A stretch of 24,000 nt of DNA from Vibrio aestuarianus. GTDB taxonomy: Bacteria; Pseudomonadota; Gammaproteobacteria; Enterobacterales; Vibrionaceae. The notes under the pieces were generated by a model. It did no database searches, was not told where the DNA came from, and saw only the letters and a program-made list of their open reading frames with translations. The position numbers and the translations under genes are program-made. The stretch covers positions 45,831-69,830 of the forward strand of contig NZ_JAAZTU010000004.1 of NCBI RefSeq assembly GCF_012395185.1, given 5' to 3'. This document shows, piece after piece, positions 1,285 to 20,508 of the stretch. How positions within the stretch are numbered: the first letter of the stretch is position 1; every line of letters begins with the position of its first letter.

Positions 1285-2790
<1,506 letters not shown>

Positions 2791-3288: not shown

Positions 3289-4737
<1,449 letters not shown>

Positions 4738-4792
4738 TTATAGTCGTCATTTCTCTATGCTTCCTTGTAGGGAAGAAGCATAAAGGCGTTTG

Positions 4793-4833
4793 CAGTGTGA
4801 CTGAGCCTTGAACGGCAAGCCTCAGTCACACTG
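4793..4833 (-). other. Long intercistronic stem-loop between ebgC and permease A (18-bp stem, 1 mismatch, 5-nt loop)
   Basis: CAGTGTGACTGAGCCTTG-AACGG-CAAGCCTCAGTCACACTG read directly. No U-run follows on either strand, so it is not a canonical terminator. A second 8-bp hairpin (TATGCTTC...GAAGCATA) lies at about 4757-4781. Confidence 0.6.
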
Positions 4834-4890
4834 TGAATAGATCTTGTTGTTGCTACTTTCGGCTGTTTGGCTTCAGTAACTTAATGTCGG

Positions 4891-8541
<3,651 letters not shown>

Positions 8542-8544
8542 TTA

Positions 8545-8563
8545 TTAGTAAAAGTTTTACTAA
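8545..8563. promoter_or_regulatory. Perfect 19-bp palindrome TTAGTAAAA-G-TTTTACTAA upstream of ebgA (candidate operator)
   Basis: Read directly: 9-bp arms around G8554, about 100 bp upstream of the ebgA start. On the minus strand it sits next to a TAATAAT -10-like element. Confidence 0.45.
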
Positions 8564-8572
8564 ATAAAATTG

Positions 8573-8588
8573 GTGAAAACGTTTTACT
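8573..8588. promoter_or_regulatory. CG-centred LacI-family-type operator GTGAAAACGTTTTACT upstream of ebgA
   Basis: Perfect 10-bp core palindrome AAAACGTTTT. It matches the perfect GalR-type box at 10015-10030 at 12 of 16 positions. Whether EbgR or GalR binds it cannot be told from sequence. Confidence 0.5.
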
Positions 8589-8717
8589 TTAACTCAATCA
8601 CGTTTTTTATGGTTTTTTTGCGGTGCTGTGTGATCCACTTAAAAGAATGCTATTGGCTGTTTTATGAAGCAGGTTAAAGAGGGGGAGAGTGTGTACATTG
8701 ATGTATGTGATGGGCAC

Positions 8718-8746
8718 AAAAAAGGCCACCTTTAACAAAGGTAGCC
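8718..8746 (-). terminator. Intrinsic terminator after ebgR
   Basis: Minus-strand RNA GGCUACCUUU-GUU-AAAGGUGGCC (10-bp stem with one G.U pair) followed by UUUUUUG. It lies 28 nt after the ebgR stop. Confidence 0.8.
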
Positions 8747-8773
8747 TTGGTTTATCTATTTGATATATTTTAA

Positions 8774-9769
<996 letters not shown>

Positions 9770-16018: not shown

Positions 16019-16138
16019 GTTATGCCTCTTTTATTTTATGTAGGCATTTAACAATGGCTGTGAAAATAACGCAAATGAACAATGCACTCATATTGATATT
16101 TGCGATCTCAAACACTGATGGAATCTGGCTTAGTTGTA

Positions 16139-16154
16139 GTGTAAACGTTTCTAA
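16139..16154. promoter_or_regulatory. GalR-type operator-like site GTGTAAACGTTTCTAA upstream of galR
   Basis: The left half and CG centre are identical to the perfect box at 10015-10030 (12 of 16 overall). It lies about 128 bp upstream of the galR ATG, which suggests autoregulation. Confidence 0.45.
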
Positions 16155-16215
16155 AAATGCCGTTATCTTTTAGTGGGAAGCGTGTTTTAGTCCTCGTGTG
16201 TAGGTTGGTGCACTG

Positions 16216-16767
16216 TTAACGAACTTTGGCAATTAAATCATCGATAATAGAGTGGTGACTAGGTTGTACACCTGCAAGGTTGCCGTATTTAGGATCATGA
16301 CGGTCATTCTCTAAAGGATGTTGCCAACCAAGGGTATGCTCGACAAAGTGATGGGCAAATGATTCTGAGAACTCTAAGCATCCGGCTAAAACCGTATCGA
16401 CATAAGTTTGTACTATCGGGCTGTGTACACATGGTGGTTGTGGCGAATCTTTGACATAAACCCAAATCGGAAGTTGTGGATTAAATGCATGCTCGGTCTC
16501 TATTTGATTGGCAGAAATGGATATTCGCTCGTAACCACGCTCACGGTGATCAAATTCTGCTAAGGCGAATTCATCTATTTCTAGTAGCACCCCATTTACT
16601 TTTCCTTGGCCTATATTGACCACTAGCGGTGATAATACATAGCTGTCATCAATTTTCCCCCAGCAACGCACGAGACCATGAGCAACGACTGGAATCGCTT
16701 GCCCAGTTTGCCCTGTTAGTTGGCGAGAAGCGGAATTGATTAAACTACCGTAGCCAAAAATATACAT
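16216..16767 (-). CDS. Gamma-glutamylcyclotransferase-fold (GGCT/AIG2/ChaC-like) protein, 183 aa
   Basis: It has the N-terminal YIFGYGSLI motif typical of the GGCT/ChaC fold and a central L.EFD.RERGYERI segment (the LD..E..Y.R pattern). ATG 16767 follows GAGGG and lies 18 nt after the upstream gene's stop. Confidence 0.7.
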   Translation of the reverse strand: MYIFGYGSLINSASRQLTGQTGQAIPVVAHGLVRCWGKIDDSYVLSPLVVNIGQGKVNGVLLEIDEFALAEFDHRERGYERISISANQIETEHAFNPQLPIWVYVKDSPQPPCVHSPIVQTYVDTVLAGCLEFSESFAHHFVEHTLGWQHPLENDRHDPKYGNLAGVQPSHHSIIDDLIAKVR

Positions 16768-16785
16768 ACCGACCCTCGAAAGTGG

Positions 16786-17724
16786 TTAATCTTTATTAAA
16801 AAAACGCAAACGGTGAAGAATCCAAAACTCCACCGCAAATATGCCCACTAACGCTGCACAAAACAGACCAAAGGCAACGGGGGATTCAGTTCCAGGAATA
16901 CCACCTACATTGACTCCGAGTAAGCCAGTTAAGAAACTAGTGGGTAGGAAAATAGCCGCAATAACCGAGAACAAATAGGTATTTTGGTTCATCTTTTCGG
17001 CGTGATATTGGCGCAATTCACCTTTGATGATTTCCAGTTCACCAAGAAAGAAGTCGAGTGTTTCATTGATACGAGTAATGGTGTTAACGCTGTGCCGCAG
17101 GCGCAAATTTTTGCTATTGGCTAGCGCAACGTCTGAGTTACAGTAGTCATCAATTGCGTACAGCTGCGGCTTAATAAAGCGTTTAATTTTGAGCAGCGCT
17201 TTATGGGTTTGCATTAGATCTTCGCTCAACTCGATTTCGGTATCGTATTGAGTGATTTTTTCTTCAATGCTGCTTAAGTAGTGATCAATATTTTTATTCA
17301 GGCCATCGATCACTTGTACAATAACCTCTGATAAGGTTTGAGGTCCTTGCCCTGCCAGTAGAGCTTCTCGAATAGCATTGATGGCTTTGGATGGAATTTT
17401 ACGTGTGGAAAAGAGCGCACCATTGAAATAAAGAATCCGCACACTGAGCATGTCTTCAGGGTTTGCGTTGTCGTTCATGTTGACACCACGCAAGATCAAC
17501 AAAAAATTGTCATCCTCATATTGCTCGAACAACGGCCGCGTATCTTCAGCTAATAAGCTATCGACTATCGTGCTGGGAATTTGATACTCCAATAGCCACT
17601 CACGTAGCCCTTGTTTATCTCGTTGACAGTGATACCAGTTATTCGGTTCTATAGTTGAAGCGTTATTTGTGTGTTGTATTGGCGGAGAAGAAGAAAAGCG
17701 CCAATGATCAATCAAGAATTCCAT
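16786..17724 (-). CDS. zntB: CorA-superfamily divalent-cation channel, ZntB-like, 312 aa
   Basis: The C-terminus FLPTSFLTGLLGVNVGGIPG is followed by a second TM segment. This matches the ZntB GVN signature (E. coli ZntB [20 protein letters not shown]) rather than the CorA GMN signature. It also has a long soluble N-terminal domain. Confidence 0.8.
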   Translation of the reverse strand: MEFLIDHWRFSSSPPIQHTNNASTIEPNNWYHCQRDKQGLREWLLEYQIPSTIVDSLLAEDTRPLFEQYEDDNFLLILRGVNMNDNANPEDMLSVRILYFNGALFSTRKIPSKAINAIREALLAGQGPQTLSEVIVQVIDGLNKNIDHYLSSIEEKITQYDTEIELSEDLMQTHKALLKIKRFIKPQLYAIDDYCNSDVALANSKNLRLRHSVNTITRINETLDFFLGELEIIKGELRQYHAEKMNQNTYLFSVIAAIFLPTSFLTGLLGVNVGGIPGTESPVAFGLFCAALVGIFAVEFWILHRLRFFNKD

Positions 17725-17790
17725 ATTTATCCTTAATTAATGCTCCTCAAAACTTGCTGTGTTGAGGAGCATTTCCGTTATGTTTGATGG

Positions 17791-19242
17791 TTAGAAGCCA
17801 CGCATTTGAATGCGGCGTAAGAACTCCGTCATCACTCGGTCATAAAGTAGATCACCTAAGAATGCATCTTCAACTTGGTGGTCAATACTTGGGTTGTCGT
17901 TGACTTCAATCACATATACTTGGCCATCAATTTCTTTTAAGTCAACGCCGTATAACCCTCCACCAATAAGGTTAGCCGCTTTCACTGCTACATCGACCAC
18001 ATTTTTAGGTACTTGTTTGAGATCCAAAGTTTCAAAGCCGCCAGATGAAACTCGACCACTGTTATGGTGTTGGTAGATCTGCCAGTGACCACGGCTCATC
18101 ATATATTTACAAGCGTAGATCGCTTGGCGGTTCATGACTCCGATACGCCAGTCAAAATCGGTTGGCATAAACGCTTGCGCGAGAATCAAGGCACTTTTTT
18201 CAAACAATACGCCAGCTTCGCGTTCAAGCTCTTCTTGGTTGCGCACTTTTACGACACCGCGAGAAAATGCACCATCAGGAATTTTTAACACCATTGGAAA
18301 ACTCAGTTCTTCCATAACGTGCGTTTTCCAGTTCTCATCAAAGCTTTGTAATATTACGCCTTTTGGTGCAGGCACATTATTGCGTTGCAAAAGCTCGGTT
18401 AAGAAAACCTTGTTGGTGCATTTCATTATCGATTCAGAATCATCCATCACCACTAGGCCCATTTTTTCTGCGGTTTTAGCAAAGCGATAGGTGTAGTTAC
18501 TGATGTTGGTCGTGGCGCGAATAAATAAACCATCAAACTCGCCTAAACGGGAAAGATCATCCGGTGAAATCGTTTCAAGGTTGACGCCTAATCGGTTCGC
18601 CGCACGGCGAAAACGCTTCAGTGCCGATGCATCGGATGGCGGCATTTTCTCTTCTTCATCCACTAGCATGGCAATGTCGTAGCGATATTTCTTTTCTTGT
18701 TTAGGTTTGCGCCATACTTTGGTGGAAAACAGCTCAAGTGACTCAACAAAGAAGTCTTGTTCGTGGTCGTTCAGATCTTGGAATGGGAATGGTCCAATTT
18801 TACTGATTTGCCACTGACCTTGGTGCTTATTCATCTCAAGCTCAATCACCGGCACCATAAACTGCTCGAACAGATGCCGTGCCAGTTTATCTAACCCTTT
18901 TTCTTCGGTACGGCCAAAATAAATTTTGCATTGAATATGGTCAGTTTCGGTACACAGCTTATTGAGTTTTAATAAGCCCGATGACAACAAAAATGGTTGG
19001 TTAATATCATTGATAGCCATGACCCGTGGGATCACGCGGTGACCACGAGCTTCTGCCATCAACGAGCAGTAATAGCCACTGCTCATGTAGCTATAATCGC
19101 GACATAGGTTCACCACTTGTAAACTGCGGTGAGTCTGTTTCCAATCGGTGTTGAGGTATTGATCGACACTCACCACTTGCTCCGAAGGGAAATATTGTTG
19201 CCAGTCACTTGACTGGTCAGTCACGATCAAAAGATTTGCCAT
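17791..19242 (-). CDS. RimK-like ATP-grasp ligase with about 190-aa N-terminal extension (RLAN-type domain), 483 aa
   Basis: The C-terminal half is collinear with E. coli RimK: PMVLKIPDGAFSRGVVKV ~ PLVVKLVEGTQGIGVVL; ILAQAF ~ ILVQEYI; DWRIGVM ~ DIRCLVV; YGVDLKE.DGQVYVIEVNDNPSI ~ AGVDIL...GPLVMEVNASPGL. The N-terminal region contains YMSSGYYCSLMAEARGHRVIPRV. I recall this as typical of the RimK-like ATP-grasp N-terminal domain family, but that needs HMM confirmation. Confidence 0.8.
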   Translation of the reverse strand: MANLLIVTDQSSDWQQYFPSEQVVSVDQYLNTDWKQTHRSLQVVNLCRDYSYMSSGYYCSLMAEARGHRVIPRVMAINDINQPFLLSSGLLKLNKLCTETDHIQCKIYFGRTEEKGLDKLARHLFEQFMVPVIELEMNKHQGQWQISKIGPFPFQDLNDHEQDFFVESLELFSTKVWRKPKQEKKYRYDIAMLVDEEEKMPPSDASALKRFRRAANRLGVNLETISPDDLSRLGEFDGLFIRATTNISNYTYRFAKTAEKMGLVVMDDSESIMKCTNKVFLTELLQRNNVPAPKGVILQSFDENWKTHVMEELSFPMVLKIPDGAFSRGVVKVRNQEELEREAGVLFEKSALILAQAFMPTDFDWRIGVMNRQAIYACKYMMSRGHWQIYQHHNSGRVSSGGFETLDLKQVPKNVVDVAVKAANLIGGGLYGVDLKEIDGQVYVIEVNDNPSIDHQVEDAFLGDLLYDRVMTEFLRRIQMRGF

Positions 19243-19312
19243 TGCTATTCTTTTCCTTAATCAATAGGAATAATATTGAGCTGCAATCTTGCCAACCACT
19301 TAGGGACGTCGT

Positions 19313-20407
19313 ATGGACTTTCGTCTTGCGAAAAGTGCTGATCTCACTGCTCTTAATGCGCTAGAACAACAGCTGTTTGAGGGAGATAAAATTTCTCCGC
19401 GCCAAATGAAGCGTTTTTTACATTCCAACCAAGCTGTGTTCTTTGTGGCTGATGCCGGAACAGAACTGGCAGGTTATGCATTGCTACTATTTCATCAAGG
19501 TACACAGCTATCAAGGTTGTATTCGATTGCCGTAAAACCTGATTTCAGAGGCCGAAGGATTGCTCAAAATTTAGTTGAGCAATGCGAGCGTGCTGCTCTT
19601 GATCAAGGTGCGACTACATTACGATTAGAAGTGCGTGAAGACAATACGGCAGCGATAAATTTATATGAAAAAATGGGCTATAAAACCCTTAAATTATTAA
19701 TCCATTATTACGATGACCTATGTAATGGGAGGCGGATGCAAAAACGTCTTTCACCGCAAGGGCCTAAAGTGCAATTGCCGATGCCACTTTACGTGCAAAC
19801 CACCCCGTTTACTTGCGGTGCCGCTTGTTTATTGATGAGCTTTTCCTGCTTATCGACATCGTTTGAACCAAGCCGCACCGAAGAGCTACAACTGTGGCGC
19901 GAAGCAACCACCATATTTATGGCTGCGGGACACGGAGGATGCAGTGGTCATGGGCTGGCACTGGCCGCGACAAGGCGTGGTTACCATGTTGAGTTATGGA
20001 GTCAGTCGAAGAGCACACCATTTATTGATAGCGTGCGTGACCTAAATAAAAAGCAAGTGATTGAATTGGTTCATCAAGATTTTTGTGAACAACTGACTCA
20101 TGAGGATGTGACGATGATTGATGCGCCACCCACTCAAGAGCAGCTTGAGCAATGGGTCAATCAAGGTGCATGTGTTTTACTCTTGATTAGTACTTATCGA
20201 TTTGACGGTAAAAAAGAGCCACATTGGATTGTGCTCAGTGGTATGAGTGAAAAGTTCTTCTTCATTCACGATCCACATGCTGAAACAGAAGCTGACGCTA
20301 TGGCTTCTGCATTCATTCCTGTGGGTAAAAAAGCATTGTCGCAAATTATCGGGTTTGGCAAGCAAAAACAGACTGCTTGTGTGGTGATTAGTAAGAGTAA
20401 GTCATGA
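19313..20407 (+). CDS. Fusion protein: N-terminal GNAT (RimI-like) acetyltransferase plus C-terminal C39-like papain-fold peptidase domain, 364 aa
   Basis: Residues 1-145 show the GNAT pattern: LSRLYSIAVKPDFRGRRIAQNLV (the acetyl-CoA loop R-G-R-R-I-A) and LEVREDNTAAINLYEKMGY. Residues 155-330 have PFTCGAACLLM (Cys168, nt 19814-19816), EPHWIVL (His304) and FIHDP (Asp320), in the Cys...His...Asp order of C39-like peptidases. Confidence 0.8.
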   Translation: MDFRLAKSADLTALNALEQQLFEGDKISPRQMKRFLHSNQAVFFVADAGTELAGYALLLFHQGTQLSRLYSIAVKPDFRGRRIAQNLVEQCERAALDQGATTLRLEVREDNTAAINLYEKMGYKTLKLLIHYYDDLCNGRRMQKRLSPQGPKVQLPMPLYVQTTPFTCGAACLLMSFSCLSTSFEPSRTEELQLWREATTIFMAAGHGGCSGHGLALAATRRGYHVELWSQSKSTPFIDSVRDLNKKQVIELVHQDFCEQLTHEDVTMIDAPPTQEQLEQWVNQGACVLLLISTYRFDGKKEPHWIVLSGMSEKFFFIHDPHAETEADAMASAFIPVGKKALSQIIGFGKQKQTACVVISKSKS

Positions 20408-20454
20408 AAACCTAAAGGAGTCTTTATGACTTCATTTGGTTGTGTCGCTTTAAC
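20401..20454. promoter_or_regulatory. Three GT-N7-AC inverted-repeat sites (NorR-type enhancer candidate)
   Basis: GTCATGAAAAC (20401-20411), GTCTTTATGAC (20420-20430, within the perfect palindrome AGTCTTTATGACT) and GTCGCTTTAAC (20444-20454). Their centres lie about -129, -110 and -86 from the predicted sigma-54 TSS. The GT-N7-AC motif is the reported NorR recognition pattern. Confidence 0.5.
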
Positions 20455-20508
20455 TCTTTTAGTTGGTGGTTTTTTGTTATCTCATTGTTTTTAATGAATT
20501 ATTAATAT

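What the first reader, a model, noticed from the sequence alone, without database searches (positions are those of the whole stretch)
16216..20494. Divergent RimK-like ATP-grasp ligase and GNAT-C39 peptidase fusion, with a ZntB-type channel and a GGCT-fold enzyme: candidate uncharacterised peptide or protein modification module
What the sequence shows:
- Two genes are transcribed back to back from a 70-bp region (19243-19312).
- One is a 483-aa protein. Its C-terminal half is clearly a RimK-type ATP-grasp amidoligase, and about 190 extra N-terminal residues contain YMSSGYYCSLMAEARGHRVIP.
- The other is a 364-aa fusion of a RimI-like GNAT domain with a papain-fold C39-like peptidase domain. The Cys168/His304/Asp320 triad is intact.
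- The ATP-grasp gene is followed on the same strand by a ZntB-like channel (66-bp gap containing an 11-bp-stem hairpin) and then, 18 bp later, by a gamma-glutamylcyclotransferase-fold protein.

Established background: RimK adds glutamates to ribosomal protein S6. RimI-type GNATs acetylate protein N-termini. C39 peptidases cut peptide leaders. GGCT-fold enzymes release 5-oxoproline from gamma-glutamyl compounds.

Inference: a ligase, an acyltransferase, a peptidase and a gamma-glutamyl-cleaving enzyme in one neighbourhood suggest synthesis, trimming and turnover of a glutamyl-containing peptide or a protein tail. I know of no experimental characterisation of this pairing.
Basis: partly seen in the sequence, partly recalled or inferred. 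Interest (0 to 1): 0.72.

Follow-up and report, generated by a model that had tools for sequence, protein, structure and literature searches.

The report
Conserved RimK-like ligase and acetyltransferase-peptidase pair
Two divergently transcribed Vibrio genes, an ATP-dependent peptide ligase and an acetyltransferase fused to a cysteine peptidase, form a widespread two-gene unit whose product has never been tested; the neighbouring metal channel and gamma-glutamyl enzyme are bystanders.

Summary
The proposed four-gene module is not supported.

**Conserved core:**
- The core is the RLAN+RimK-type ATP-grasp ligase paired with a RimI/Nat-like GNAT.
- The GNAT lies next to the ligase in 77 of 80 species-level genome loci.
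- The ligase lies next to the GNAT-C39 gene in 56 of 65 metagenome loci with adequate flanks.
- The pair occurs in three gene orders and also as GNAT-RLAN-ATP-grasp fusion proteins.
- The C39-like domain is optional (42 of 77 loci). Its Gln/Cys/His/Asp residues are invariant.
- Other loci add a DUF2817 (AstE/AspA-like) hydrolase or a MATCAP-like metallopeptidase.

**Bystanders:**
- The CorA/ZntB-like and GGCT genes accompany the pair only in some Vibrio species.
- Both also occur in Vibrio genomes that lack the pair.
- In Photobacterium the GGCT gene follows the 5-oxoprolinase genes.

**Most likely function (inferred):** synthesis, N-acetyl capping and hydrolysis of a short, probably glutamate-containing peptide. 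The closest parallels are NAA/NAAG and NAGGN metabolism. Reversible protein C-terminal tailing is the main rival.

**Status:** I found no experimental characterisation. The component families are already catalogued. This is an ordinary member of an uncharacterised family, of moderate interest.

The parts
17791..19242 (-). RLAN + RimK-type ATP-grasp amidoligase, 483 aa (core gene 1)
   Evidence: - ORF.
- Pfam RLAN 1.4e-45 and RimK 4.6e-11.
- A family profile matches RimK structures best (5zct, 4iwx; 1.3e-09) from residue ~238 onward.
- ATP-grasp motif residues K320, D323-G324, Q356, D364-W365-R366, D434, E446 and N448 are invariant in 13 homologues.
18742..19164 (-). RLAN domain (residues 27-167), an extra N-terminal domain absent from RimK
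   Evidence: - Pfam PF14401.
- 754 cluster representatives at 50% identity in 1.84 billion proteins.
- AF2 model has pLDDT 77.5.
- Its best Foldseek PDB hits are ATP-grasp enzymes (LysX, ArgX, RimK, PsnB; E 9e-05; TMq 0.5-0.56).
- hhalign gives no sequence support for an internal duplication (probability 1.7%).
17878..18675 (-). Pre-ATP-grasp plus ATP-grasp catalytic region (residues 190-455)
   Evidence: NCBIfam rimK_fam aligns residues 190-454 to model positions 2-258, at 91.1 bits against a cut-off of 143.4.
19243..19312 (.). 70-bp divergent intergenic (shared promoter) region, with the dyad TTCCT-N8-AGGAA at 19253-19270
   Evidence: - Sequence.
- The dyad and a GCAATCTTGCCAACC block are conserved among Vibrio loci.
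- The consensus sigma-70 scan found no site inside this region.
19313..20407 (+). GNAT + DUF3335 (C39-like papain-fold) fusion protein, 364 aa (core gene 2)
   Evidence: - ORF; Pfam domains.
- 3123 homologues, named by NCBI 'GNAT family N-acetyltransferase/peptidase C39 family protein'.
19313..19747 (+). RimI/Nat-like GNAT domain (residues ~1-145)
   Evidence: - NCBIfam rimI scores 80.8 bits against a cut-off of 86.4.
- A family profile's best PDB matches are N-alpha protein acetyltransferases: 6wqb, SSO0209, Ard1/Naa10 and RimI.
19781..20389 (+). C39-like cysteine peptidase domain (residues 157-359). Catalytic codons: Cys168 at 19814-19816, His304 at 20222-20224, Asp320 at 20270-20272.
   Evidence: - DUF3335 1.7e-77.
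- Q162, C168, H304 and D320 are invariant.
- AF2 model has pLDDT 89.7.
- Foldseek hits, all with TMq about 0.5: a C39-like peptidase (3erv), the PCAT1 and ComA C39 domains, the phytochelatin-synthase-like Alr0975, PeiR and staphopain.
17740..17772 (-). Hairpin in the 66-bp gap between the ATP-grasp and CorA-like genes; possibly a weak terminator or attenuator
   Evidence: - (z-score -3.87).
- The tail UUAAUUAA is not a clean U-run, and the terminator scan did not call it.
16786..17724 (-). CorA-family channel with a GVN motif (ZntB-like); a neighbour, not part of the module
   Evidence: - Pfam CorA 5.3e-62; NCBIfam ZntB 162.8 bits against a cut-off of 292.
- Absent next to the pair outside some Vibrio species.
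- A 52%-identical homologue lies on the other side of nnrS in V. antiquarius, where the pair is absent from the locus.
16216..16767 (-). GGCT/ChaC-like gamma-glutamylcyclotransferase-fold protein; a neighbour, not part of the module
   Evidence: - Pfam GGACT 1.4e-07.
- YGSL and DHRERGY motifs are in the translation.
- The family is largely restricted to Vibrionaceae (287 proteins).
- It is present without the pair at that locus in V. splendidus and V. antiquarius.
- It follows pxpABC in Photobacterium.

Best explanation
**Shown**
- The functional unit is a two-gene amidoligase module, not four genes.
- Gene 1 encodes a RimK-type ATP-grasp ligase with an extra N-terminal RLAN domain.
- Gene 2 encodes a RimI/Nat-like acetyl-CoA-dependent N-acetyltransferase, here fused to a papain-fold Cys-His-Asp peptidase.
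- The CorA/ZntB-like channel and the GGCT enzyme are unrelated neighbours.

**Inferred mechanism**
- The GNAT acetylates the alpha-amino group of an amino acid or short peptide.
- The ATP-grasp enzyme activates a carboxylate as an acyl-phosphate and ligates L-glutamate, or another amino acid, to it. All characterised RimK-family alpha-L-glutamate ligases work this way.
- The product would be a short N-acetyl-capped, probably acidic peptide.
- The fused C39-like domain hydrolyses that peptide for length control or recycling. In other lineages a DUF2817 (AstE/AspA-like) hydrolase or a MATCAP-like metallopeptidase would do this, in addition or instead.
- The logic matches two known systems: NAT8L / RIMKLA / aspartoacylase (N-acetyl-aspartate and NAAG) and the GNAT+ATP-grasp enzyme Ngg (N-acetylglutaminylglutamine amide).
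- The substrate and the physiological role (osmolyte, storage or signal) are unknown.
For: **Linkage of the pair**
- A GNAT homologue (36-98% identical to the window's GNAT domain) lies next to the ligase in 77 of 80 species-level loci. 75 of these are divergent, with 71-369 bp between matches.
- In the reciprocal test, the ligase lies next to GNAT-C39 in 56 of 65 metagenome loci with adequate flanks. The orders are 33 divergent, 12 ligase-then-GNAT and 11 GNAT-then-ligase.
- Single-chain GNAT-RLAN-ATP-grasp proteins exist (P0282, P0368, P0303).

**The enzymes look active**
- ATP-grasp motif residues are invariant.
- The C39 Gln/Cys/His/Asp residues are invariant.

**Chemistry**
- The closest families are RimK, LysX, MptN and CofF, all Glu-linked ligases.

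**An N-acyl theme**
- DUF2817 occurs in 9 of 80 and 29 of 80 loci. It lies between or beside the pair and is translationally coupled to GNAT-C39 in Thiothrix.
- Its only secondary Pfam hit is the succinylglutamate desuccinylase/aspartoacylase catalytic domain (1.9e-05).

**Other points**
- Structural neighbours of the C39-like domain include enzymes that act on small non-ribosomal peptides: Alr0975 on glutathione and PeiR.
- No third gene is conserved that could encode a precursor peptide or carrier protein.
- Obligate coupling of N-acetylation with carboxylate ligation is natural for one small molecule. This last point is inference.
Against: - No product, substrate or phenotype is known.
- The GNAT's closest relatives acetylate protein N-termini, not free amino acids.
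- RimK and LysX themselves act on protein C-termini.
- The eukaryotic relatives of MATCAP act on protein tails.
- The RLAN domain has no role in this model.
- 35 of 77 loci have no fused peptidase, and P. aeruginosa has the ligase with no adjacent GNAT.
- The DUF2817-to-AstE/AspA link is borderline (24.8 bits against a cut-off of 25).
- All scores against curated equivalog models fall below their cut-offs, so specificity cannot be transferred.
Confidence: 0.42

Rival explanations
1. **Reversible protein-tail modification (writer/eraser).** The RLAN-ATP-grasp enzyme adds glutamates or other residues to the C-terminus or a side chain of a protein encoded elsewhere, as RimK does on ribosomal protein S6. 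RLAN recognises the target. The C39-like, DUF2817 or MATCAP-like peptidases remove the tail. The Nat-like GNAT acetylates the same target or the ligase.
For: - The catalytic domain is closest to RimK.
- The GNAT is closest to protein N-alpha-acetyltransferases, including RimI.
- A MATCAP-family metallopeptidase with the HExxH motif, aligning to human KIAA0895L, follows GNAT-C39 in Enterovibrio and in several of the fetched genome and metagenome loci.
- M14-like enzymes and MATCAP trim tubulin tails written by ATP-grasp TTL/TTLL enzymes (established knowledge).
- Pseudomonas RimK works with the RimB peptidase (established knowledge).
- RLAN is an extra domain that needs a role.
Against: - Nothing explains why a C-terminal tailing enzyme should be almost obligately paired, and sometimes fused, with an N-alpha-acetyltransferase.
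- No target gene is linked to the pair.
- 35 of 77 loci lack a fused eraser.
- DUF2817's only cross-hit is to N-acyl-amino-acid amidohydrolases.
Confidence: 0.3
2. **The first reader's four-gene module.** The ligase, GNAT-peptidase, ZntB-type channel and GGCT enzyme cooperate in making, trimming and turning over a gamma-glutamyl peptide. This resembles the butirosin logic, where BtrJ is an ATP-grasp enzyme, BtrH a papain-like transacylase and BtrG a GGCT enzyme.
For: - Three of the genes are on the same strand with gaps of 66 and 18 bp.
- The same four-gene order occurs in V. cholerae and two Vibrio-like metagenome contigs, and V. ordalii keeps the pair followed by CorA up to the end of its contig.
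- An ATP-grasp enzyme works with the papain-like transacylase CtaG in closthioamide synthesis (PMC7183216). The BtrJ/BtrH/BtrG precedent is from my own knowledge.
Against: - CorA and GGCT are absent from 79 of 80 genome loci and from 77 and 78 of 80 metagenome loci.
- They are absent next to the pair in V. gazogenes and Enterovibrio.
- GGCT holds the same backbone position without the pair in V. splendidus and V. antiquarius and follows pxpABC in Photobacterium.
- In V. cholerae a repeat element (Rfam V_AS5) sits in the 231-bp ligase-CorA gap.
- RimK-family ligases make alpha-linked, not gamma-linked, bonds (family knowledge).
- No carrier-protein gene lies in the neighbourhood.
Confidence: 0.05
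3. **Peptide assembly by transacylation.** The papain-fold domain is not a hydrolase. It acts as a transpeptidase or transacylase, like phytochelatin synthase, CtaG or BtrH. It would move an acyl or peptidyl unit made by the ligase onto an acceptor, with the GNAT acting as a second ligase or cap.
For: - Structural neighbours include Alr0975 acyl-enzyme structures and, more weakly, CtaG.
- CtaG was assigned by HHpred to PF11814 and BtrH, and it cooperates with an ATP-grasp enzyme.
- GNAT domains fused to DUF3335 'might function as peptide ligases' (PMC10318531).
Against: - No carrier protein or thioester-forming enzyme is linked to the pair.
- The domain is dispensable in 35 of 77 loci, which fits an accessory hydrolase better than a core biosynthetic step.
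- CtaG matches are weak (TMq 0.23-0.37).
Confidence: 0.1

Closest known systems
RimK (ribosomal protein S6 : L-glutamate ligase) with the RimB peptidase in Pseudomonas
   Same: - Both have a RimK-type ATP-grasp catalytic domain, and RimK is the best PDB profile match (1.3e-09).
- Both show the logic of a ligase linked to a peptidase.
   Different: - The match covers only residues ~238-460.
- The rimK_fam score is 91 bits against a cut-off of 143, and the RimK equivalog scores 32 against 331.
- This protein has an extra 190-residue RLAN region.
- Its partner is a GNAT with a papain-fold peptidase, not a retropepsin-like RimB.
- The target is unknown.
NAT8L + RIMKLA/RIMKLB + aspartoacylase (animal N-acetylaspartate / NAAG metabolism)
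   Same: - Both combine a GNAT N-acetyltransferase with a RimK-like ligase.
- Many related loci also carry an AstE/AspA-like hydrolase, DUF2817.
   Different: - This is an analogy in logic only.
- The bacterial GNAT resembles protein N-alpha-acetyltransferases.
- DUF2817 is absent from this window.
Ngg, N-acetylglutaminylglutamine synthetase (TIGR03103, a GNAT + ATP-grasp fusion)
   Same: [quoted passage not shown]
- GNAT-RLAN-ATP-grasp fusions exist in this family.
   Different: - TIGR03103 scores only 28.8-29 bits against a cut-off of 569.
- Ngg has no RLAN domain.
- The amidotransferase and M42 hydrolase partners of Ngg are not found here.
C39 bacteriocin-processing peptidases (the PCAT / ComA peptidase domain)
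   Same: - Both have the papain fold with Gln/Cys/His/Asp residues.
- They are structural neighbours (TMq about 0.45-0.5).
   Different: - Pfam Peptidase_C39 gives only E = 0.037.
- Here the domain is not fused to an ABC transporter.
- No double-glycine leader peptide gene is nearby.
- The WREATT...GHGGC motif is specific to DUF3335.
Closthioamide CtaD/CtaG and butirosin BtrJ/BtrH/BtrG
   Same: - An ATP-grasp ligase cooperates with a papain-fold enzyme (PMC7183216).
- In butirosin synthesis a GGCT enzyme is also involved (own knowledge).
   Different: - Those systems are thiotemplated on carrier proteins, and none is present here.
- The GGCT gene here is a synteny bystander.

Membership tests
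RLAN-containing RimK-like ATP-grasp family (Pfam PF14401 + PF08443) | An N-terminal RLAN domain followed by a RimK-type ATP-grasp domain, both above the Pfam gathering scores | tested here: met
   - RLAN scores 155.1 bits against 25; RimK scores 43.1 against 21.
- Full-length homologues of ~480-540 aa share the architecture.
RimK proper (S6 : L-glutamate ligase; NCBIfam NF007764 / TIGR00768) | A score above the curated cut-off of the equivalog or subfamily model | tested here: not met
   TIGR00768 scores 91.1 against 143.4. NF007764 scores 32.3 against 331.
RimK proper | [quoted passage not shown] | not testable with these tools
   This needs biochemistry or proteomics.
ATP-grasp superfamily (active enzyme) | Conserved ATP- and Mg-binding residues: the Lys and Gly-rich loop, the hinge, D-x-R, and D/E-x-N | tested here: met
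   K320, D323-G324-S327-G329, Q356, D364-W365-R366, D434, E446 and N448 are invariant in 13 sequences down to 49% identity.
DUF3335 / C39-like papain-fold peptidases (PF11814) | HMM match above the cut-off, and a conserved Gln/Cys/His/Asp catalytic set | tested here: met
   - 260 bits against 25.
- Q162, C168, H304 and D320 are invariant in 47 sequences.
- The model has a papain-like fold.
Canonical peptidase C39 (PF03412; bacteriocin leader peptidase of ABC transporters) | A PF03412 match, fusion to or pairing with an ABC exporter, and a double-glycine leader substrate gene | tested here: not met
   - PF03412 gives E = 0.037 and 14.3 bits against 22.
- No ABC transporter or small precursor ORF lies in the neighbourhood.
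RimI (S18 alanine N-acetyltransferase; TIGR01575 equivalog) | A score above the equivalog cut-off | tested here: not met
   - 80.8 bits against 86.4, just below the cut-off.
- The GNAT domain of the fusion protein P0282 reaches 90.5.
- The family is RimI/Nat-like but not RimI.
GNAT superfamily | An Acetyltransf_1 match and an acetyl-CoA pyrophosphate-binding motif | tested here: met
   - 73.4 bits against 20.7.
- The R79-G80-x-x-I-A segment is conserved.
Ngg / NAGGN synthetase (TIGR03103) | A score above the equivalog cut-off, with linked amidotransferase and M42 hydrolase genes | tested here: not met
   - 28.8 bits against 569 for the window GNAT; 29 bits for the fusion P0282.
- No such neighbours were found.
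ZntB zinc transporter (NF007092 equivalog) | A score above the equivalog cut-off | tested here: not met
   - 162.8 bits against 292.
- It is a CorA-family member (210 bits against 27) with a GVN motif. The evidence supports 'ZntB-like', not ZntB.
GGCT / GGACT-fold gamma-glutamylcyclotransferases | A Pfam GGACT match and the N-terminal YGSL motif | tested here: met
   - 32.6 bits against 22.8.
- YGSL is at residues 6-9.
- The ChaC-type NCBIfam model scores 54 against 480, so subfamily and substrate are unassigned.
Thiotemplated ATP-grasp / papain-transacylase pathways (Cta, Btr) | A carrier protein (PCP/ACP) gene in the cluster | tested here: not met
   - No PP-binding protein is among the annotated ORFs of the window.
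- No carrier-like gene appears among the conserved neighbour clusters whose identity was checked.
Anti-phage defence systems (PADLOC) | A match to any defence-system protein model | tested here: not met
   - There is no hit for the ligase, GNAT-C39 or GGCT. CorA gives only a weak CorA-like hit at 9.7e-05.
- There is no phage copy, and copies are rare on plasmids or chromids.

The most novel reading that the evidence does not exclude
The pair would be the core of a bacterial 'write, cap and erase' system for protein C-terminal tails.
- An RLAN-guided RimK-like ligase adds residues to an unidentified protein.
- The erasers come from three peptidase families: C39-like, M14/AstE-like DUF2817 and MATCAP-like.
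- Two of these families have eukaryotic relatives that trim tubulin tails written by ATP-grasp TTL/TTLL enzymes.
- The module would then be a prokaryotic counterpart, and possibly an evolutionary source, of the tubulin-code enzyme set.
Probability: 0.25. Interest if true: 0.8.

Novelty: new variant of a known kind. Interest (0 to 1): 0.42.

Why it matters
- **Spread.** The module is widespread. It occurs in V. cholerae, V. vulnificus, V. anguillarum, Pseudomonas (the P. aeruginosa copy is PA1345 by gene order), Legionella, Shewanella, Marinobacter, Halomonas and Xanthomonadales.
- **Gap in knowledge.** No paper I could search assigns it a substrate or a phenotype.
- **What a result would add.** Identifying the product would add either a new N-acetyl-peptide metabolite to bacterial physiology or a new reversible protein modification. 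It would also give a first function to RLAN, DUF3335, DUF2817 and the bacterial MATCAP homologues.
- **For this scan.** The useful correction is that the unit to study is two genes, not four.

Tried and rejected
- **Four-gene module.** Rejected by comparative genomics.
- **RLAN as an internal duplicate of the ATP-grasp half.** The Foldseek similarity has no sequence support (hhalign probability 1.7%), so this stays an unproven lead.
- **Known RNA element or riboswitch in the intergenic regions.** Nothing in the window passes (best E = 0.6). The consensus scans place no promoter in the 70-bp region and do not call the hairpin a terminator.
- **Defence-system or mobile-element origin.** There are no PADLOC hits and no phage copies. 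Only 11 plasmid or chromid records match. GC content is flat across the region.
- **Identity with Ngg.** Rejected.
- **Solved structure of a close homologue.** None exists for RLAN or DUF3335 by sequence.
- **Other conserved neighbours.** Shikimate dehydrogenase, an aminotransferase, uvrB and a cation-efflux protein are lineage-specific synteny only.
- **Literature.** Searches for DUF3335, RLAN, the PF numbers, VC2331-2334, PA1345, MATCAP + ATP-grasp and RimK-like + GNAT returned no functional study. The 2009 Iyer/Aravind amidoligase paper (PMC3268129) is not held. My belief that it first described RLAN and this gene neighbourhood is memory, not a verified source.

Full report
**1. Observation**

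The window is Vibrio core chromosome. The ligase is 100% identical to a protein that NCBI lists as 'MULTISPECIES: RimK family protein [Vibrio]' and UniRef assigns to V. aestuarianus.

The gene order in the window is: two amino-acid permeases, lacZ, lacI, galETKM, a LacI-type regulator, GGCT, CorA-like, ATP-grasp, then divergently GNAT-C39, nnrS and dapD. GC content is flat at 0.41-0.46 across the region.

- The four ORFs are at the stated coordinates, with gaps of 70, 66 and 18 bp.
- The YMSSGYYCSLMAEARGHRVIP segment is at residues 52-72.
- The hairpin is at 17740-17772 (z-score -3.87).
- The domains are confirmed: RLAN 1.4e-45, RimK 4.6e-11, GNAT 2.4e-20, DUF3335 'Peptidase_C39 like' 1.7e-77, CorA 5.3e-62 and GGACT 1.4e-07.

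None of the four proteins reaches the curated cut-off of an NCBIfam equivalog or subfamily model.

| Model | Score (bits) | Cut-off (bits) |
|---|---|---|
| rimK_fam | 91 | 143 |
| rimI | 80.8 | 86.4 |
| ZntB | 163 | 292 |
| ChaC-type GGCT | 54 | 480 |

The family-level calls are therefore right, but no specific function can be transferred.

**2. What belongs together**

*Starting from the ligase.* I scanned one genome per GTDB species with a 13-sequence ligase alignment. At least 589 relatives were found, and the 80 best loci were fetched with 10-kb flanks. They are mostly Gammaproteobacteria, from Vibrio, Shewanella, Marinobacter, Halomonas, Pseudomonas, Methylobacter and Rhodanobacteraceae. 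Single loci come from Bacteroides, Bacteroidetes, Thermodesulfobacteriota and Halobacteriovoraceae.
- A close homologue of the window's GNAT domain lies next to the ligase in 77 of 80 loci.
- 75 of these are divergent. The matched coding regions are 71-369 bp apart, or about 1.25-1.6 kb apart when one more gene sits between them.
- The C39-like domain is fused to the GNAT in 42 loci. In 35 loci the GNAT stands alone at 150-210 aa. These are Xanthomonadales, Halomonas, some Pseudomonas and Bacteroides.

*Starting from GNAT-C39.* In 80 metagenome loci, the ligase is adjacent in 56 of the 65 with adequate flanks. Three arrangements occur: 33 divergent, 12 ligase-then-GNAT and 11 GNAT-then-ligase. 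Six of the nine exceptions have neither DUF2817 nor MATCAP nearby. The three of these I examined share one synteny, patatin | GNAT-C39 | ApbE, so they may be a single lineage.

*Fusions.* Single polypeptides with GNAT, RLAN and ATP-grasp domains exist, such as P0282 at 663 aa.

Adjacency that survives rearrangement, together with gene fusion, is strong evidence that the two enzymes work on one substrate or pathway.

**3. What does not belong**

CorA and GGCT homologues appear next to the pair only in Vibrio-type loci. These are V. ordalii (CorA only, at a contig end), V. cholerae and two to three marine contigs. V. gazogenes and Enterovibrio have the pair without them.

The GGCT family is small (287 proteins) and largely restricted to Vibrionaceae.
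- V. splendidus has nnrS | GGCT | tRNA_bind | lacI | galM-K-T, the same backbone, with no ligase, GNAT or CorA.
- V. antiquarius has a 52%-identical CorA on the other side of nnrS, then GGCT, again with no pair at the locus.
- In Photobacterium profundum, GGCT starts 38 bp after the 5-oxoprolinase genes pxpA, pxpB and pxpC. That is a self-contained explanation for a 5-oxoproline-forming enzyme.

In V. cholerae, both intergenic regions flanking the ligase carry copies of a repeat that Rfam lists as V_AS5. The 66-bp and 70-bp spacings in this window are therefore not conserved features. The apparent 'ligase + peptidase + gamma-glutamyl-cleaving enzyme' neighbourhood is an accident of Vibrio synteny.

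**4. Accessory genes that do recur**

Two other hydrolases recur with the pair.
- **DUF2817** (2.8e-76 to 3.3e-98).
  - It lies between or beside the two genes in 9 of 80 genome loci and 29 of 80 metagenome loci.
  - In Thiothrix nivea its stop codon overlaps the GNAT-C39 start by 4 bp.
  - Its only secondary Pfam hit is the succinylglutamate desuccinylase/aspartoacylase catalytic domain (1.9e-05; 24.8 bits against a cut-off of 25).
  - Its only PDB hit is a carboxypeptidase-like protein at E = 0.017.
- **A MATCAP-family metallopeptidase** (6.6e-101).
  - It follows GNAT-C39 in Enterovibrio and in several of the fetched genome and metagenome loci.
  - It aligns to human KIAA0895L (MATCAP) across the HExxH motif.

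The invariant theme is therefore a ligase plus an N-acetyltransferase. A hydrolase from one of three unrelated folds is usually attached.

**5. The parts themselves**

*Ligase.*
- All ATP-grasp signature residues are invariant.
- The family profile matches RimK structures best (1.3e-09), but only from residue ~238 onward.
- The next-best curated families, LysX, MptN and CofF, also ligate to or with glutamate.

*RLAN.*
- The family has 754 representatives at 50% identity. RLAN is almost always at the N-terminus of proteins of ~480-540 aa, and sometimes follows a GNAT.
- An AlphaFold model (pLDDT 77.5) is most similar to the ATP-grasp enzymes LysX, ArgX, RimK and PsnB (E 9e-05; TMq 0.5-0.56).
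- Its secondary structure reads as a Rossmann-like pre-ATP-grasp unit followed by a beta-alpha-beta-beta-alpha unit.
- A profile-profile comparison with the protein's own C-terminal half gives no support (probability 1.7%). 'Degenerate ATP-grasp-like module' is a lead only.

*GNAT.* Its best PDB profile matches are protein N-alpha-acetyltransferases: 6wqb, SSO0209, Ard1/Naa10/20/30 and RimI.

*C39-like domain.*
- Gln162, Cys168, His304 and Asp320 are invariant, as is a family-specific WREATT...GHGGC motif.
- The model (pLDDT 89.7) has a papain fold.
- Its nearest structures are a Bacillus C39-like peptidase, the PCAT1, ComA and LahT C39 domains, the glutathione-cleaving phytochelatin-synthase-like Alr0975, the pseudomurein isopeptidase PeiR and the staphopains. 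CtaG matches more weakly.

**6. Mechanism**

*Shown.* This is a conserved, probably co-regulated pair of apparently active enzymes, with accessory hydrolases.

*Inferred (confidence about 0.42).* The GNAT blocks an alpha-amino group. The ligase forms an acyl-phosphate and adds glutamate or another amino acid, giving a short N-acetyl-capped peptide. The Cys peptidase domain, or DUF2817 or MATCAP-like enzymes elsewhere, degrades or trims it.

Reasons for preferring this reading:
- Near-obligate coupling, and even fusion, of N-acetylation with carboxylate ligation is natural when both act on one small molecule.
- Two characterised precedents have this composition: NAT8L with RIMKLA/B and the aspartoacylase-family hydrolase, and the GNAT+ATP-grasp enzyme Ngg.
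- DUF2817 points to N-acyl-amino-acid amidohydrolases.
- An N-blocked peptide would need dedicated non-aminopeptidase hydrolases.

*Main rival (about 0.30).* The pair is a protein-tail writer/eraser system like RimK/RimB, or like TTL-TTLL with MATCAP and CCP. The Nat-like GNAT, the RimK and LysX precedents, MATCAP, and the unexplained RLAN domain all favour it.

*Minor rivals.* A transacylase role for the papain domain (about 0.10) is suggested by CtaG and BtrH (PMC7183216). The original four-gene model gets about 0.05.

**7. Comparison with what is known, and novelty**

- The window proteins are ordinary members of families already in Pfam and already named by NCBI as 'RimK family protein' and 'GNAT family N-acetyltransferase/peptidase C39 family protein'.
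- A 2015 paper from the Aravind group recalls that ATP-grasp/GNAT operons had been described and predicts peptide ligation 'capped by an acyl group' (PMC4431377).
- I believe the 2009 amidoligase paper from the same group defined RLAN and this neighbourhood, but it is not held. That attribution rests on memory.
- No held paper reports an experiment on these genes. The P. aeruginosa copy is PA1345 by gene order next to aatJQMP-pagP. It was still listed as 'hypothetical ATP-binding protein' in December 2025 (PMC12802237).
- Relative to characterised systems this is a new variant: an extra RLAN domain, a fused C39-like domain and an unknown substrate. As a genomic observation it is not new.

**8. 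Verdict**

The pair is real. The ZntB-like channel and the GGCT enzyme are not part of it.
- Interest is moderate at 0.42. The target is widespread, experimentally open and present in pathogens, but it is an already catalogued family and there is no surprising mechanism yet.

Noticed in passing
L081 (V. cholerae) 5845-5968 and 7458-7582; corresponding window gaps 19243-19312 and 17725-17790: In V. cholerae both intergenic regions flanking the ligase gene contain a copy of the Rfam family V_AS5 (RF02818). The scores are 42.9 bits, and 106.3 bits against a gathering score of 96. Each insertion is about 125-135 nt and looks like a dispersed repeat rather than a dedicated sRNA gene. Both copies are absent from this window.
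   Followed up: partly
window 19253-19270 and 19276-19299: The dyad TTCCT-N8-AGGAA, next to the ligase start codon, is conserved in most of the Vibrio-type intergenic regions compared (not V. gazogenes). A GCAATCTTGCCAACC block is conserved in all of them. In V. cholerae the two are separated by the repeat insertion. This may be an operator or promoter for the divergent pair. The regulator is unknown.
   Followed up: partly
window 18673-19242 (RLAN region of the ligase): The AlphaFold model of RLAN is most similar to ATP-grasp enzymes themselves (LysX, ArgX, RimK, PsnB, ITPK1; E 9e-05; TMq 0.5-0.56). This suggests a degenerate ATP-grasp-like N-terminal module. hhalign against the protein's own C-terminal half gives no support (probability 1.7%).
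   Followed up: partly
L168 (Photobacterium profundum) 3557-6573: The orthologous GGCT-fold gene starts 38 bp after pxpA-pxpB-pxpC (LamB_YcsF, CT_C_D and CT_A_B, the 5-oxoprolinase genes). This suggests a gamma-glutamyl to 5-oxoproline to glutamate salvage unit.
   Followed up: no
window 16019-16215: V. cholerae, V. splendidus and V. antiquarius have a 110-114-aa tRNA_bind (CsaA-like) gene between GGCT and the LacI-type regulator. In this window only a 197-bp gap remains there.
   Followed up: no
L148, L150, L151 (metagenome contigs), around 3700-9000: In one high-GC lineage the GNAT-C39 gene has no ligase within 5 kb. It sits between a divergent patatin-like phospholipase gene and ApbE plus an NqrF-like reductase.
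   Followed up: partly
L169 (P. aeruginosa record NZ_CP133752.1) 4911-6500: The P. aeruginosa RLAN-ATP-grasp gene is PA1345 by gene order. It has no adjacent GNAT. It lies between pagP, an SDR gene and a convergent class I/II aminotransferase gene. PMC12802237 lists a predicted CpxR-type box 69 bp upstream of PA1345.
   Followed up: partly
V. cholerae VC2332 and VC2334 (numbering not verified against L081): PMC2665243 lists an antisense RNA (AS6, 116 nt) within VC2332. PMC2836559 lists VC2334 as having a candidate regulatory 5'UTR, with ykoK (Mg riboswitch) noted for related genes. If these tags correspond to the ligase and to the CorA-like or GGCT gene, CorA may have its own regulated transcript.
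   Followed up: no
window 1285-2718 and 3289-4725: Two tandem paralogous amino-acid permease genes (AA_permease_2, 477 and 478 aa) lie on the minus strand upstream of the lacZ / YhcH-like genes.
   Followed up: no
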